From Gemmatimonadales bacterium (lineage in GTDB: Bacteria > Gemmatimonadota > Gemmatimonadetes > Gemmatimonadales > GWC2-71-9), in the NCBI GenBank assembly GCA_044229245.1, contig JBGATI010000013.1, positions 16,809 through 80,808 of the forward strand: DNA of 64,000 nucleotides. The letters are read 5' to 3'. Shown here piece by piece: positions 14,664 to 18,221 of this stretch; position 1 is the stretch's first letter, and the number at the start of each line of letters is the position of its first letter. Position numbers and translations under genes: made by a program. Under the pieces are notes generated by a model that was not told the origin of the DNA, did no database searches, and was given only the letters and a program-made list of their open reading frames with translations.

Positions 14664-17486
14664 TCAGCGTTCGATCGACGTCTGGTTGTAATCGAACTTG
14701 ATGTCGGGAAGGTCCGACAGGTAGACCGAGAAGAAGAAGGCGAAGTTCCCGTTCGGATTGCGGACGAAGTTGAAGCCGGCCCGCCACTCGTGCAGCACTC
14801 GCTCGAGGCGCACGACCTGGGATTCGAACTTGTTGTCCGTGATGTTGTACTGCGTGGACCACGACACGCTCCAGAAGGGCGTCGGCGCGAAGGCGGTGCT
14901 GAAGCCGAGGCTCTGCTGGGGCTTCTGCTCGACAGCATTGGCCGACGGATTCCGGAACGGCCGCTGCCGGGAGAGGCTGTAGTTGAAGTTCGCGGTGAAT
15001 CGGCGGTTGGTGCCGGCCCCAATGGTCTGGTCGGCCCCGCCGCCGTAGAAGGACGGTGCCCGCCCGAACCGGCTCTGACTGGCCACGTAGGAGGGTGGTG
15101 GCGCCTCTTTGCTCGAGGTCGAGTCCCGTTTGCCACCAAGCCCGAAGAGGCCCAGCACGGACTTCACCGTCCCGCCGGAGATGGCGAAGCTCGCGGTCAC
15201 GGACTGCAGGAACGGCGAGAAGTGCGAGGTGTCGGAACCGACGTCTCCATTCCAGAGGTCGTGCGTCAGGCTCAGGTTGAAGCCGGGCAGGAGATCGCTC
15301 TGGAACTGATTGGTCATCGTCTTGGTGCGCCACCCGGTCCGCCCAGGCAGCTTGGCCTGTTCGAAATCGTACTGCATCGGCGACGTCTGGATGCCCAGGA
15401 TCCTGAAACGCCTCGCGTTGTCGGCGCCGGTCGGATCCTCGGCGGTCGAGTCCGCGCTCGAGCGCTTGACCGATTTGCCCTCGATGTTCTGCGAAAGCCC
15501 GATGCTGAGCAGCTGGGTGGGGTCGGTACGCAGCCTGACCGTTTCTCCGGGGCGCGCGAGCGCCCGGGCAAAGGCCTGGTCGATCGAGGCGGCGGGGCTG
15601 TAGCTCCAGCTGATTGTCGGTGAGATGCTGTGCCGGATCCGCTGGATCGGGCCGAATCCGGGGAAGAAGCCGAAAAAGGTCGGCGATGCGGCCAGCGCGA
15701 AGTTGAACCGCTTACCCTGACGCACCCATTGGCCTCCGGTGTTCGCGTTCCGGATCATGAAGGCGCCCTGGGTCGTGGCGTTCACGATGCCCACGGTGGG
15801 CTGGAGCTTCCAGGTGCCGCGGAGCACCGTCGGGAGATTGATGCCTGTCTGCCAGTCCACGGCGCTCTCGAACGACCCGTTGGTGAACTGACTGACGGTG
15901 ATGGAGTCGGTCGGGTCCGCCGTGGTAGGATCGGGGACGCGGATTCCGCCGATGACTTTGGGGCCGGTATCCTTCCGGTCGTTGTAGTTGAACGAGTTCT
16001 GCCAGTTGAAGCCACCGAACCGGATGGGCGTCTGGAATCCGACGGTGGTCGTGCGGCTGCTCCGCGTGAGTCCGAGCGTATCGATCAGCCCCGAGGGGAG
16101 CACCACCGCCTGGGAGACCGGAAAGTTGTTCTCGAGGTTGTTGGTGACGGACAGGCCGGGGGACCAGGTGATGTCCCTCGCGATGTCGATCGGCTTGGGC
16201 GACAGAGAGAGGGACGGGAGCTGCATCGTGACGCTCCCGTCCGACAGGTTCTGACGCCGGTTGCCGCCGAGGGCGAGAGTGCCCCAGGCGAAGCGCTTGG
16301 AGAAGTTCGCCGCGCTGAGGATCTGCTGGGTTGACTGCAGCGGATCGATCGCGTTGCGCCGCTGCACGAAACCGCTGCTGGTGTAGTTGAAGCTGACGTT
16401 GAGCGACGTGGAGAGATTGAAGTTCTGGCGATGGTCCCAGCGGATGTTGGTCGAGCGGCGACCGCCACTCTCCACGGTCTGCCGATATCCGATCGCCCCG
16501 CTGAGGAAGCGGTTGATCCAGCGATACTCCGCGGCGCCCCCGTATTCCACGTACCGGTTGGCATACCAGTCGAGTTTGGCCGTGATGTCCAGGTAGTCCG
16601 ACGGCGCCCAGTAGTACCCGATGTTGGTGATCTGCCGGTTGTACCCCGGGTTCTGCCTGACAATGTCATTCAGCCCGAATCGTGGCACCAGGATGCCCGA
16701 GCGCCGCCCCGTCCGCGCATCCTGGAACACGAAGGGGAGCCACAGCACCGGCACATCGCGCACGTAGAGGACCGCCGGCCTCGCGACCATCACCGTCTTC
16801 GAGATCCACTTCACTTCCCTGGCGGAGAAGTGATAGTGCGGTTCCGGCAGGTCACAGCTCGTGATCTCGCCCTCGGAGGCGTAGAGCCGGGCAGCGCTCG
16901 AGTCCTGCGCCAGGTTGCCGCGCAGGAACCAGTCGGTGGAGCCCTGCTTGAAGCTGGTGAGGGCGTCCGACACGACGCCCCGGCGGATGCAGGTGTTGTA
17001 GCGGATTCCGCCGAAGCCCGTGAGCACGGTCTCCTTGTCGAAAAGCGCGGGATCCCCCGTGGCGCGGATGAGGCAGTCCGCCTCCTGATAGGCGATCGAA
17101 TCCGCCTCCAGCGTCGTCTCCCCCCGCCTGGTGCTCGCCGCCCCCCGCAGGTGCAGGCGCCGCTCGTCCGCGAAGACTGTCGCGGAGTCGGAGCGGAACC
17201 GGGTCGACTGGTAGCCCTTCCGCCCCAGCAGGTCGGTCACGACCGAATCGTCAGGCGCGAAGTTTCGTCGGGGCGCCGTCGGCAGGCCGAGCCGCCGGGC
17301 CGTGGCGGTATCGACGGCCTGCCCCGGCCGGGGAAGGGTGGGGTCGGCCCGGGTCGTATCGGTGACGGTGATGACCGGCTTCTTCCGTCGCACGGTCGGC
17401 ACCGGCTCCTGGGCACCCAGCGCTCCGGAGCCAAGCAGGCAGAACAGCAGCACGGCGACTGCAGCAGCCGCCGCCTCGCGAGCCAC
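14664..17486 (-). other. lptD: LptD-like portion (signal-peptide-like segment, OstA-like domain and barrel), possibly a separately initiated CDS
   Basis: The in-frame GTG at 17486 would give [28 protein letters not shown]..., a plausible Sec signal peptide. No obvious Shine-Dalgarno sequence lies upstream. Confidence 0.55.
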
Positions 17487-18221
17487 CTTGCGCCGGTGAA
17501 TGACCCACGATCCCACGAAGCCGAGCTCGTAGAGCAGCAGGATCGGCACCGTCATCAGGACCATGGAGAGGATGTCGGTCCCCGGGCTGAGGACCGCGCC
17601 GGCGGTGGCCGACAGCACGATCGCGAAGCGGCGGAATCGATTGAGACCTCCCGGCGTCACGAGCCCGAGAGCTGCAAGCAGCATGATGACCAGCGGAATC
17701 TCGAAGGAGAGGCCCATCGCCAGCACGAGCTGGATGACAAAGCTGAAGTACTCCCCGAACGTGATCAGGTTGACCAGTCCCTCGGACTGGAAGCTGAAGA
17801 GGATCGGGAGGGATTGCGGGAGCAGCACGAAGAACCCGAAGGCCGCGCCGCCGAGGAACATCAGTGTTCCGGCGAGGAGCGCCGGGACGACCAGGCGCTT
17901 CTCCTTCTCGTAGAGTGCCGGGGAGAGAAAGCCCCAGATCTGGAAGATGATGTAGGGGGAGACCAGCACCAGCCCGACGATCAGCGCGAGTTTCAGCGTG
18001 ATCATGACGGCTTCCGTCGGGCTGGTCACGACCAGTTTGCCGCCCGTCGCGGTGAGATACTGGGCAATCGGCGCCTTCAGGAGATTGACCACCTGAAAGC
18101 GCTGGACCATCCAGTAGCCGACGAGAAAGCCCACTACCAGCGCGAGAAGCGTCCGCACCAGCCGCTGGCGCAACTCCTCGAGGTGCTCGAGGAAGGGCAT
18201 CTCCGCGCTGGGGCCTGTCAT
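14664..18221 (-). CDS. tatC: Single ORF encoding TatC fused in frame to an LptD-like outer-membrane protein
   Basis: 1185 codons without a stop. The N-terminal ~245 aa are TatC (MPFLEHLEELRQRLV..., multiple TM segments). Next comes [31 protein letters not shown], which looks like a signal peptide. Then comes an OstA/LptD-like region (SCDLPEPHYHFSAREVKW, RRSGILVPRFG, IGYYWAPSDYLD), followed by a long beta-rich C-terminus. Confidence 0.8.
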   Translation of the reverse strand: MTGPSAEMPFLEHLEELRQRLVRTLLALVVGFLVGYWMVQRFQVVNLLKAPIAQYLTATGGKLVVTSPTEAVMITLKLALIVGLVLVSPYIIFQIWGFLSPALYEKEKRLVVPALLAGTLMFLGGAAFGFFVLLPQSLPILFSFQSEGLVNLITFGEYFSFVIQLVLAMGLSFEIPLVIMLLAALGLVTPGGLNRFRRFAIVLSATAGAVLSPGTDILSMVLMTVPILLLYELGFVGSWVIHRRKVAREAAAAAVAVLLFCLLGSGALGAQEPVPTVRRKKPVITVTDTTRADPTLPRPGQAVDTATARRLGLPTAPRRNFAPDDSVVTDLLGRKGYQSTRFRSDSATVFADERRLHLRGAASTRRGETTLEADSIAYQEADCLIRATGDPALFDKETVLTGFGGIRYNTCIRRGVVSDALTSFKQGSTDWFLRGNLAQDSSAARLYASEGEITSCDLPEPHYHFSAREVKWISKTVMVARPAVLYVRDVPVLWLPFVFQDARTGRRSGILVPRFGLNDIVRQNPGYNRQITNIGYYWAPSDYLDITAKLDWYANRYVEYGGAAEYRWINRFLSGAIGYRQTVESGGRRSTNIRWDHRQNFNLSTSLNVSFNYTSSGFVQRRNAIDPLQSTQQILSAANFSKRFAWGTLALGGNRRQNLSDGSVTMQLPSLSLSPKPIDIARDITWSPGLSVTNNLENNFPVSQAVVLPSGLIDTLGLTRSSRTTTVGFQTPIRFGGFNWQNSFNYNDRKDTGPKVIGGIRVPDPTTADPTDSITVSQFTNGSFESAVDWQTGINLPTVLRGTWKLQPTVGIVNATTQGAFMIRNANTGGQWVRQGKRFNFALAASPTFFGFFPGFGPIQRIRHSISPTISWSYSPAASIDQAFARALARPGETVRLRTDPTQLLSIGLSQNIEGKSVKRSSADSTAEDPTGADNARRFRILGIQTSPMQYDFEQAKLPGRTGWRTKTMTNQFQSDLLPGFNLSLTHDLWNGDVGSDTSHFSPFLQSVTASFAISGGTVKSVLGLFGLGGKRDSTSSKEAPPPSYVASQSRFGRAPSFYGGGADQTIGAGTNRRFTANFNYSLSRQRPFRNPSANAVEQKPQQSLGFSTAFAPTPFWSVSWSTQYNITDNKFESQVVRLERVLHEWRAGFNFVRNPNGNFAFFFSVYLSDLPDIKFDYNQTSIER
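17487..18221 (-). other. tatC: TatC-homologous portion of the fused ORF
   Basis: aa 1-245 of the ORF. The boundary is placed just before the in-frame GTG at 17486. Confidence 0.75.

What the first reader, a model, noticed from the sequence alone, without database searches (positions are those of the whole stretch)
14664..18221. TatC fused in frame to an LptD-like outer-membrane protein through a signal-peptide-like seventh hydrophobic segment
Seen in the sequence:
- There is one uninterrupted 1185-codon minus-strand ORF.
- Residues 1 to about 245 are a complete TatC (FLEHLEELRQRL..., hydrophobic helices up to ...YELGFVGSWVIH).
- Residues about 243-270 read [31 protein letters not shown]. That is a basic n-region, a hydrophobic core and an A-x-A-like cleavage site.
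- The remaining ~900 aa look like LptD, with an OstA-type N-terminal region and then SCDLPEPHYHFSAREVKW, RRSGILVPRFG and IGYYWAPSDYLD, ending in a long beta-strand-rich C-terminus.

Established knowledge: TatC has both its N- and C-termini in the cytoplasm. An extra hydrophobic segment after it would therefore cross the membrane from inside to outside, the same orientation as a Sec signal peptide.

Inference: there are three possibilities.
- (a) It is a genuine polyprotein, and the barrel domain is released into the periplasm by signal peptidase.
- (b) The LptD-like protein initiates independently at the in-frame GTG at 17486, with TatC reading through.
- (c) A stop codon was lost, or there is an assembly error.

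A covalent or translational link between the Tat inner-membrane translocase and the LPS-insertion barrel would be unusual.
Basis: partly seen in the sequence, partly recalled or inferred. Interest (0 to 1): 0.7.

Follow-up and report, generated by a model that had tools for sequence, protein, structure and literature searches.

The report
TatC–LptD polyprotein with internal signal peptide
A soil-type Gemmatimonadota bacterium encodes its inner-membrane Tat translocase subunit and its outer-membrane LPS-insertion barrel as one protein, joined by what was once the barrel's own export signal; the fusion is real, recurs within the phylum and apparently has not been described.

Summary
Window 14664-18221 (-) is one 1185-codon ORF. 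It encodes a complete TatC (residues 8-245), a 28-residue signal-peptide-like segment ending ALGA|Q271, and a 915-residue LptD-like protein.

It is not an assembly error. More than 120 independent full-length homologues (58-95% identity) have the same architecture.

In every Gemmatimonadota locus I could evaluate, tatC lies directly upstream of this lptD-like gene, at the end of a tolQ-tolR-tolA-tolB-pal-ybgF operon. In 42 loci the two genes are separate. In nearly all of those the tatC stop overlaps the lptD start (GTGA, ATGA or TGATG), and the LptD-like protein has an ordinary N-terminal signal peptide ending AxA|Q. In 24 loci, as in this window, the two genes are fused. The polar C-terminal tail of TatC is gone, and the Arg cluster after TM6 serves as the n-region of that same signal peptide.

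The cleavage motif is strictly kept in fused proteins: position -1 is A, G or S in 118 of 119. No in-frame start codon or Shine-Dalgarno site is conserved.

Best reading: a polyprotein inserted as a seven-helix membrane protein and cut by signal peptidase I, which releases the LptD precursor. Cleavage is inferred, not shown. This is a new variant of a known kind, of moderate interest.

The parts
14664..18221 (-). Single ORF, 1185 codons plus TGA stop: the TatC::LptD-like fusion gene
18226..18230 (-). GGGAG Shine-Dalgarno-like motif, 4 nt upstream of ATG 18221. It lies in the 17-nt spacer after the ybgF stop (18239-18241).
17487..18200 (-). TatC domain, residues 8-245. It has six TM helices and keeps the EHLEELR and PALYEKEKR motifs.
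   Evidence: Pfam and NCBIfam matches. phmmer against Aquifex TatC 4b4a, E 6e-45, aligned end to end. Foldseek 4b4a, target TM-score 0.76.
17412..17495 (-). Internal signal peptide, or 'TM7', residues 243-270. The n-region is RRKVAR, the h-region is AAAAAVAVLLFCLL and the c-region is GSGALGA. The predicted signal peptidase I site lies between A270 (17412) and Q271 (17411).
   Evidence: It is homologous to the N-terminal signal peptides of unfused orthologues.
17484..17486 (-). It has no SD-like motif upstream and is not conserved in homologues.
17217..17411 (-). Pro/Thr/Arg-rich linker of variable length at the predicted mature N-terminus, residues 271-335. It includes the conserved DTATARRLGLPTAP motif. 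The model gives low confidence for its first part, residues 263-299.
   Evidence: The same linker is present in unfused orthologues.
16866..17216 (-). Periplasmic beta-jellyroll of the LptA/OstA/LptD N-terminal type, residues about 336-452
   Evidence: The family profile (alignment A1) hits LptA 8onu and LptH 4uu4, and LptD 7omm and 8h1r. The model shows strands 340-452. Full-length LptD structures are the top Foldseek hits.
14667..16865 (-). Conserved hinge (SCDLPEPHYHF...RRSGILVPRFG...GYYWAP) and large C-terminal beta-barrel, residues 453-1185. The Pfam LptD_2 match covers 479-926.
18239..22848 (-). Upstream genes of the same operon: tolQ 22123-22848, tolR 21687-22121, tolA/TonB_2-like 20995-21690, tolB 19673-21232, pal 19072-19656, ybgF/cpoB-like 18239-19138
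   Evidence: Pfam. The same gene order occurs in 52 of 52 evaluable Gemmatimonadota loci.
7573..7830 (-). tatA-like gene (MFGNLGFGEIVGILVICLLLFGSKRLPEIG...), the expected partner of TatC. It lies 7 kb downstream on the same strand.
   Evidence: phmmer E 1e-16 against a PF02416 TatA_B_E protein of locus L083

Best explanation
The gene encodes a natural polyprotein.

Proposed mechanism (all steps inferred):
1. Translation starts at ATG 18221.
2. TatC inserts co-translationally as six helices, with both ends in the cytoplasm.
3. The next hydrophobic segment (residues 243-270) inserts from inside to outside as a seventh helix and starts Sec translocation of the 915-residue LptD-like part.
4. Signal peptidase I cuts after ALGA270.
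5. This releases a periplasmic LptD precursor starting at Q271. BAM then assembles it in the outer membrane as the LPS-insertion barrel.
6. TatC stays in the inner membrane with the former signal peptide attached as an extra C-terminal helix. It works with the TatA encoded 7 kb away.

Origin. Throughout the Gemmatimonadota, tatC and lptD are the last two genes of the tol-pal operon. They are translationally coupled through overlapping stop and start codons. In several lineages, including a large clade known only from MAGs that contains this organism, the tatC stop, the polar TatC tail and the n-region of the signal peptide have been lost. That turned the coupling into a covalent fusion.

What is shown: the architecture, its conservation, the homology of the joint to a real signal peptide, the conserved cleavage motif and the lack of a conserved internal start.

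What is inferred: the membrane topology, the cleavage itself and the function of each product.
For: 1. The fusion is real and under selection. 120 of the 120 best homologues are 1159-1196 aa long and carry both Pfam domains, down to 58% identity. 24 of 66 evaluable species-representative genome loci are fused.

2. The joint is the ancestral signal peptide.
- Unfused orthologues start with a classical n-h-c peptide ending AxA|Q(V/Q/E)P. The same mature N-terminus and Pro-rich linker follow.
- In 39 of 41 unfused loci position -1 is A (33) or G (6).

3. The cleavage motif is kept in fused proteins.
- Position -1 is A 99, G 12, S 7, T 1.
- Position -3 is A 55, L 38, G 11, V 9.
- P or G occurs at -7..-4 in 109 of 119.
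- The uncharged core has a median length of 18.
- There is a median of 5 basic residues just before it.
- Q271 is invariant in 54 of 54 aligned sequences, while the hydrophobic core itself varies freely.

4. The origin is visible.
- Almost every one of the 42 unfused loci has the tatC TGA overlapping the lptD start (GTGA, ATGA or TGATG).
- 27 of 41 have an SD-like motif inside the tatC tail.
- Both the tail and the SD are absent from fused genes.

5. No conserved internal start.
- 101 of 119 fused proteins have no Met in the joint.
- L015, L018 and L067 have no ATG/GTG/TTG between TM6 and the hydrophobic core.
- No SD-like motif precedes GTG 17486, whereas GGGAG precedes ATG 18221.

6. Both halves look functional.
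- The TatC part aligns end to end with solved TatC, and its key motifs are invariant.
- tatA is nearby.
- For the C-terminal part, the top 14 Foldseek hits are all LptD (E 5e-21 to 3e-15). Profile hits to LptD and LptA also occur.
- NCBI names unfused relatives 'putative LPS assembly protein LptD'.

7. Topology fits. TatC ends in the cytoplasm (solved structures 4B4A and 4HTS; established knowledge), so the next helix must cross from inside to outside.
Against: - No experiment of any kind exists. The fused clade is known only from metagenome assemblies.
- Leu at position -3 (38 of 119) is tolerated by signal peptidase I but is not optimal.
- In this window an in-frame GTG at 17486 could in principle give a separate product, [15 protein letters not shown].... 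Many fused genes have some GTG or ATG near the end of TM6, as expected for Val and Met codons in a GC-rich genome.
- AlphaFold models TM6 and the joint as one continuous helix (217-262) with only moderate confidence, so the model does not confirm a helical hairpin.
- I could not check whether fused-clade genomes hold a second, free-standing tatC or lptD.
Confidence: 0.75

Rival explanations
1. The fusion protein is not cleaved. The seventh helix acts as a signal anchor, so the LptD-like barrel stays covalently tied to TatC through the 65-residue Pro-rich linker. That would be a tether between inner and outer membrane.
For: About 65-70 poorly structured residues (271-335) lie between the helix and the jellyroll. 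The model gives low confidence for 263-299. Fully extended, this could span a periplasm (inference). Leu at position -3 in a third of the sequences is sub-optimal for cleavage.
Against: The small -1 residue, the P/G-containing c-region and the invariant +1 Gln are conserved exactly as in the cleavable signal peptides of unfused orthologues. A pure anchor would not need them. The linker is equally present in unfused proteins, so it is not an adaptation to tethering. No beta-barrel covalently linked to a polytopic inner-membrane protein is known (my own knowledge).
Confidence: 0.1
2. These are two proteins made from one ORF by separate initiation. TatC reads through, but the functional LptD-like protein is made mainly from the internal GTG at 17486.
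For: GTG 17486 is in frame. It would give a peptide with one Arg, a hydrophobic core and the AxA site. The ancestral state was two translationally coupled genes.
Against: No SD-like motif lies upstream of 17486, whereas 27 of 41 unfused genes have one. The codon is not conserved. L015, L018 and L067 have no canonical start before the core. Without a tatC stop codon there is no termination-reinitiation coupling.
Confidence: 0.07
3. It is an artefact: a sequencing or assembly error removed the tatC stop codon or shifted the frame.
For: Some single loci could be of this kind. L042 is an isolated fusion inside an otherwise unfused clade. Several long-read MAG loci are full of frameshifts (L003, L020, L035, L072).
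Against: More than 120 fused homologues come from JGI, NCBI, ENA and Logan assemblies. The fused joint differs in design (tail deleted) rather than by a one-base slip. Distant fused proteins are each seen on several independent contigs.
Confidence: 0.01
4. The TatC moiety is a degenerate leader that only serves SRP targeting and membrane insertion of LptD. A separate tatC elsewhere does the Tat work.
For: I could not search whole genomes of the fused clade for a second tatC.
Against: The TatC part matches the full HMM above the equivalog cut-off. It is 37-38% identical to the solved Aquifex TatC. Across 54 homologues it keeps the invariant H13-L14-E15-E16-L17-R18 and Y104/E107 motifs. No second tatC is in the 64-kb window, while tatA is.
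Confidence: 0.05

Closest known systems
FbcH polyprotein of Bradyrhizobium japonicum (cytochrome b-c1 precursor). Cited from my own knowledge: Thöny-Meyer et al. 1989 Cell; 1991 PNAS. These papers are not in the searchable library.
   Same: A polytopic inner-membrane protein ending in the cytoplasm is followed in the same ORF by the signal peptide of a periplasm-facing protein. Cleavage at the internal signal-peptidase site yields two proteins. Other bacteria encode them as two adjacent genes.
   Different: In FbcH the partners are subunits of one complex in one membrane. Here the two products belong to different machines (Tat and Lpt) in different membranes, and the released part is a large beta-barrel of about 900 residues. 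FbcH cleavage was shown experimentally. This one is only inferred.
Canonical TatC (PF00902/TIGR00945; structures 4B4A, 4HTS, 9DZZ)
   Same: Full-length match, six helices, conserved signal-peptide-binding motifs, tatA nearby.
   Different: It lacks the polar C-terminal tail of free TatC. After cleavage it would carry an extra seventh helix with its C-terminus in the periplasm.
LptD (LptDE structures 5IV9, 4Q35, 7OMM, 8H1S; Pfam LptD_2 PF19838)
   Same: N-terminal jellyroll plus a very large barrel. LptD structures are the top fold matches. There are profile hits to LptD and LptA. The Pfam LptD_2 match is above its cut-off.
   Different: Only 9-13% identity to the solved proteobacterial LptD structures. 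NCBIfam LptD equivalogs reach 20-23 bits against cut-offs of 683-944. It is about 150 residues longer. No LptE partner was identified. The signal peptide is internal rather than N-terminal.
Translationally coupled tatC-lptD gene pair of other Gemmatimonadota (Gemmatimonadaceae, Longimicrobiales)
   Same: Same operon (tolQRAB-pal-ybgF-tatC-lptD), same proteins, same signal peptide and same mature N-terminus.
   Different: Two ORFs with a 4-nt or 1-nt stop/start overlap, and a TatC tail of about 10-35 residues that carries an SD-like motif. Here the stop, the tail and the SD are gone.

Membership tests
TatC (PF00902 / TIGR00945) | Full-length profile match above the curated cut-off | tested here: met
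   PF00902 positions 1-208 of 208, 209.9 bits (cut-off 25.1). TIGR00945 200.2 bits (cut-off 132.7).
TatC (PF00902 / TIGR00945) | Six-helix TatC fold | tested here: met
   The model has pLDDT mostly 65-91 over residues 11-250. Foldseek: 4b4a target TM-score 0.76 and 38% identity; 9dzz target TM-score 0.77.
TatC (PF00902 / TIGR00945) | Conserved N-terminal and first-cytoplasmic-loop glutamates used for twin-arginine recognition (E. coli E15 and E103; numbering from memory) | tested here: met
   EHLEELR and PALYEKEKR align with the same motifs of Aquifex TatC. E15, E16, Y104 and E107 are invariant in 54 homologues.
TatC (PF00902 / TIGR00945) | A TatA/B partner in the genome | tested here: met
   tatA-like ORF at 7573-7830 (-).
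TatC (PF00902 / TIGR00945) | Tat transport activity | not testable with these tools
   Needs complementation or transport assays.
LptD, LptD_2 branch (PF19838) | Profile match above the curated cut-off | tested here: met
   PF19838, 127.5 bits (cut-off 22.5), residues 479-926.
LptD, canonical proteobacterial equivalogs (NF003358, NF002997) | Score above the equivalog cut-off | tested here: not met
   23.1 and 20.4 bits against cut-offs of 944 and 683. Only residues about 450-578 match. It is therefore a distant LptD-family member, not an equivalog.
LptD (fold) | Periplasmic LptA-like jellyroll followed by a very large beta-barrel | tested here: met
   DSSP strands 340-452, then about 28 strands from 528 to 1182. 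The top 14 PDB fold hits are full-length LptD, E 5e-21 to 3e-15. The profile hits LptD 7omm at 7e-8 and LptA 8onu at 5e-4. Model confidence is only moderate (mean pLDDT 69; residues 450-540 are low), so I do not claim a strand count.
LptD (function) | LptE-type plug lipoprotein and LPS insertion activity | not tested
   No LptE was recognised. The downstream lipoprotein (13366-14493) has no family match.
Polyprotein with internal, signal-peptidase-cleaved signal peptide (FbcH type) | The upstream polytopic part ends in the cytoplasm, and the next segment has n-h-c organisation with small residues at -3 and -1 | tested here: met
   TatC topology is taken from the solved structures (established knowledge).
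Polyprotein with internal, signal-peptidase-cleaved signal peptide (FbcH type) | The internal segment is homologous to the N-terminal signal peptide of separately encoded orthologues | tested here: met
Polyprotein with internal, signal-peptidase-cleaved signal peptide (FbcH type) | Cleavage into two polypeptides is demonstrated | not testable with these tools
   Needs protein-level data.

The most novel reading that the evidence does not exclude
The fusion is wholly or partly uncleaved. A beta-barrel in the outer membrane would then remain covalently tethered to a polytopic inner-membrane translocase subunit, physically linking Tat sites with LPS-insertion sites across the periplasm. A milder version: cleavage occurs, but the retained seventh helix changes how TatC assembles with TatA, for instance by occupying the site that TatB uses in other bacteria.
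Probability: 0.08. Interest if true: 0.85.

Novelty: new variant of a known kind. Interest (0 to 1): 0.5.

Why it matters
If the model is right, it matters in four ways.
- It is a rare natural bacterial polyprotein, kept over long evolutionary time, in which signal peptidase splits an inner-membrane protein from an outer-membrane one.
- It implies that a 900-residue beta-barrel can be exported co-translationally behind a six-helix membrane protein, rather than through the usual post-translational route.
- It implies that TatC tolerates, or makes use of, an extra C-terminal helix.
- It ties TatC and LptD synthesis at 1:1, and that ratio could be tested.

It also has a practical side for annotation. 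NCBI and JGI annotations label these 1170-aa proteins only as 'TatC', so surveys of outer-membrane biogenesis would score LptD as absent from a large Gemmatimonadota clade.

The phylum-wide operon tolQRAB-pal-ybgF-tatC-lptD is a useful marker of envelope-gene organisation.

Tried and rejected
- **Assembly error.** Rejected.
- **Conserved internal start or SD.** I searched the DNA of 24 fused loci and the window. None was found.
- **The joint as a Tat (twin-arginine) signal acting in cis.** Rejected. The Arg cluster belongs to TatC and also follows TM6 in unfused TatC. The signal peptides of unfused orthologues often have no Arg pair, or no Arg at all (L048, L053, L062).
- **Second tatC or lptD-like gene in the window.** None. 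A first regex scan for tatA also found nothing, but phmmer with a TatA from locus L083 did find one.
- **Literature.** Four searches for TatC/LptD/Gemmatimonad fusion, LptD_2 and PF19838 gave nothing relevant. Searches for the FbcH precedent did not retrieve the original papers.
- **AlphaFold model of the full ORF.** It did not resolve the TM6-TM7 geometry, showing one long helix of moderate confidence.
- **Promoter and terminator scan.** Nothing above background.

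
Full report
**1. Observation**

The window holds one uninterrupted ORF at 14664-18221 on the minus strand: 1185 codons with an ATG start. A GGGAG motif sits 4 nt upstream of the ATG, in the 17-nt gap after the preceding gene.

- Pfam places a complete TatC domain at residues 12-226 (E 5e-62) and an LptD_2 domain at 479-926 (E 8e-37).
- NCBIfam confirms tatC above its equivalog cut-off. It gives only weak partial hits to proteobacterial LptD models.
- The joint reads ...[33 protein letters not shown]|QEPVP..., and the in-frame GTG is at 17486.

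**2. Not an artefact**

A search of 5.8 billion proteins returned 1340 relatives. The 120 best are all 1159-1196 aa long and carry both domains, at 95% down to 58% identity. They come from JGI, NCBI, ENA and Logan assemblies. Where they are named, the name is 'TatC' of Gemmatimonadota or Gemmatimonadales.

**3. What the joint is**

In all these proteins TM6 of TatC (...LLYExG...) is followed by:
- an Arg/Lys cluster;
- an uncharged stretch (median 18 residues, range 12-25);
- a short c-region, usually with Pro or Gly (109 of 119);
- a small residue at -1 (A 99, G 12, S 7, T 1), with A, L, G or V at -3;
- an invariant Gln and usually Pro at +3.

The hydrophobic core itself is not conserved in sequence.

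A search with the C-terminal 915 residues against 1.84 billion cluster representatives found fused proteins, where the match starts near residue 280. It also found unfused proteins of 920-1030 aa, where the match starts near residue 30-60. The unfused proteins begin with an ordinary signal peptide ending AxA|Q, followed by the same Pro-rich linker and the same conserved motifs. The 'seventh hydrophobic segment' is therefore the signal peptide of the LptD-like protein.

**4. Genomic context and origin**

A scan of one genome per species (GTDB) gave 80 loci, all Gemmatimonadota. I searched their six-frame ORFs with TatC and LptD-like HMMs. tatC lies directly upstream, on the same strand, wherever enough upstream DNA is present.

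- 24 loci are fused in frame.
- 42 loci have two ORFs in different frames.
- In almost every two-ORF locus the tatC TGA overlaps the downstream start as GTGA, ATGA or TGATG. This is the classical arrangement for translational coupling.
- 27 of 41 have an SD-like motif at -16..-6, inside the coding sequence for a polar TatC tail.
- From the YE motif of TM6 to the stop, unfused TatC runs a median of 32 residues.
- In fused genes the tail and the SD are missing, and the basic cluster after TM6 abuts the hydrophobic core.

The whole operon tolQ-tolR-tolA-tolB-pal-ybgF-tatC-lptD is present in 52 of 52 evaluable loci and in this window.

A neighbour-joining tree of the LptD-like part shows:
- a large clade that is almost entirely fused (MAGs labelled Gemmatimonadales, including the window);
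- a Gemmatimonadaceae clade that is unfused except for L042;
- a basal group, including Longimicrobiales, that is unfused except for two distant fused lineages, P0178 and P0196.

P0178 and P0196 are each seen on several independent contigs. They lie in the same operon context, with nrdR inserted before tatC. The fusion has therefore arisen more than once.

**5. Is there a separate start for the LptD-like part?**

Not as a conserved feature.
- 101 of 119 fused proteins have no Met in the joint.
- At the DNA level, L015, L018 and L067 have no ATG, GTG or TTG between TM6 and the hydrophobic core.
- Where a GTG or ATG occurs, it is at varying Val or Met codons near the end of TM6.
- In the window, the 25 nt before GTG 17486 contain no GGAG/GAGG-type motif, unlike the real start.

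**6. Identity of the two halves**

TatC half:
- Residues 8-250 align end to end with Aquifex aeolicus TatC (E 6e-45), with the EHLxELR and PALYxxEKR motifs.
- These residues are invariant in 54 homologues.
- The AlphaFold model superposes on 4B4A with target TM-score 0.76.
- A tatA-like gene lies at 7573-7830 on the same strand.
- No second tatC or lptD-like gene is in the window.

LptD-like half:
- A family profile hits LptD of Neisseria (7OMM, 7e-8), LptD 8H1R, and LptA and LptH.
- The model shows a jellyroll (strands 340-452) and a large barrel.
- The 14 best PDB fold matches are all full-length LptD (E 5e-21 to 3e-15).
- NCBI names unfused relatives 'putative LPS assembly protein LptD'.
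- Model confidence is moderate (mean pLDDT 69) and is low over 263-299 and 450-540. I do not rely on details.

**7. Mechanism**

TatC has both termini in the cytoplasm (solved structures; established knowledge). The next helix must therefore cross from inside to outside, which is the orientation of a signal peptide.

The most economical reading has three steps:
1. The protein is made as one chain.
2. It is inserted as seven helices.
3. Signal peptidase I cuts it after A270.

The LptD precursor then follows the normal outer-membrane route. TatC keeps the former signal peptide as a seventh helix. The strict conservation of the -3/-1/+1 positions in a clade that has diverged to about 44% identity in the barrel is hard to explain unless cleavage still matters.

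The closest precedent I know is the cytochrome b-c1 polyprotein FbcH of Bradyrhizobium japonicum (from memory; the papers are not in the searchable library). I put this model at about 0.75.

Alternatives:
- An uncleaved tether, about 0.1.
- Internal initiation as the main route, about 0.07.
- A degenerate TatC leader, about 0.05.
- An artefact, about 0.01.

Nothing suggests that Tat and LPS insertion interact functionally. Co-expression within an envelope-maintenance operon is sufficient to explain the pairing (inference).

**8. Novelty**

Searches of the held literature found no description of a TatC-LptD fusion, or of the tatC-lptD coupling in Gemmatimonadota. Databases simply annotate the fused protein as TatC.

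The parts and the principle are known. The combination, its phylum-wide genetic background and its recurrence are new as far as I can tell. It is a new variant of a known kind, of moderate interest (0.5).

Noticed in passing
window 7573-7830 (-): A tatA-like gene (MFGNLGFGEIVGILVICLLLFGSKRLPEIG...) lies 7 kb downstream of the fused gene. A TatA_B_E gene sits at a similar distance in the distant fused locus L083.
   Followed up: partly
window 13366-14493 (-): A lipoprotein gene (MRTSLWAMPLLLLAAC..., about 375 aa) directly follows the fused gene. It has no Pfam match. A homologue is found downstream of tatC-lptD in 25 of 52 loci. Whether it is an LptE-like partner is unknown.
   Followed up: partly
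window 14590-14662 (-): Two GC-rich inverted repeats (GGACAG..CTGTCC and GAGTGTC..GACACTC) lie just after the TGA of the fused gene, with no T-run. They may mark the end of the operon.
   Followed up: no
L081-L084 (about 7486-8001 in L081-L083; 3782-4279 in L084): In two distant fused lineages an nrdR gene is inserted between ybgF and tatC::lptD. In L083 and L084 its stop codon overlaps the tatC start by one base; in L081 and L082 there is a 5-nt gap.
   Followed up: no
L042 1638-5420: An isolated fusion inside the otherwise unfused Gemmatimonadaceae clade. It keeps the long acidic TatC tail and the former GTG start in frame. It is either a very recent fusion or a one-base assembly error.
   Followed up: partly
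L003, L020, L035, L072: These MAG loci (isolate names beginning MFD) have the tatC-lptD region broken into several frames. This pattern is typical of indel errors rather than biology. I left them out of the counts.
   Followed up: no
window 11708-13312 (-) and 24595-25182 (-): Histidine ammonia-lyase (hutH) lies downstream of the operon in 34 of 52 loci. A formaldehyde-activating enzyme (Fae) gene lies upstream of tolQ in the window.
   Followed up: no
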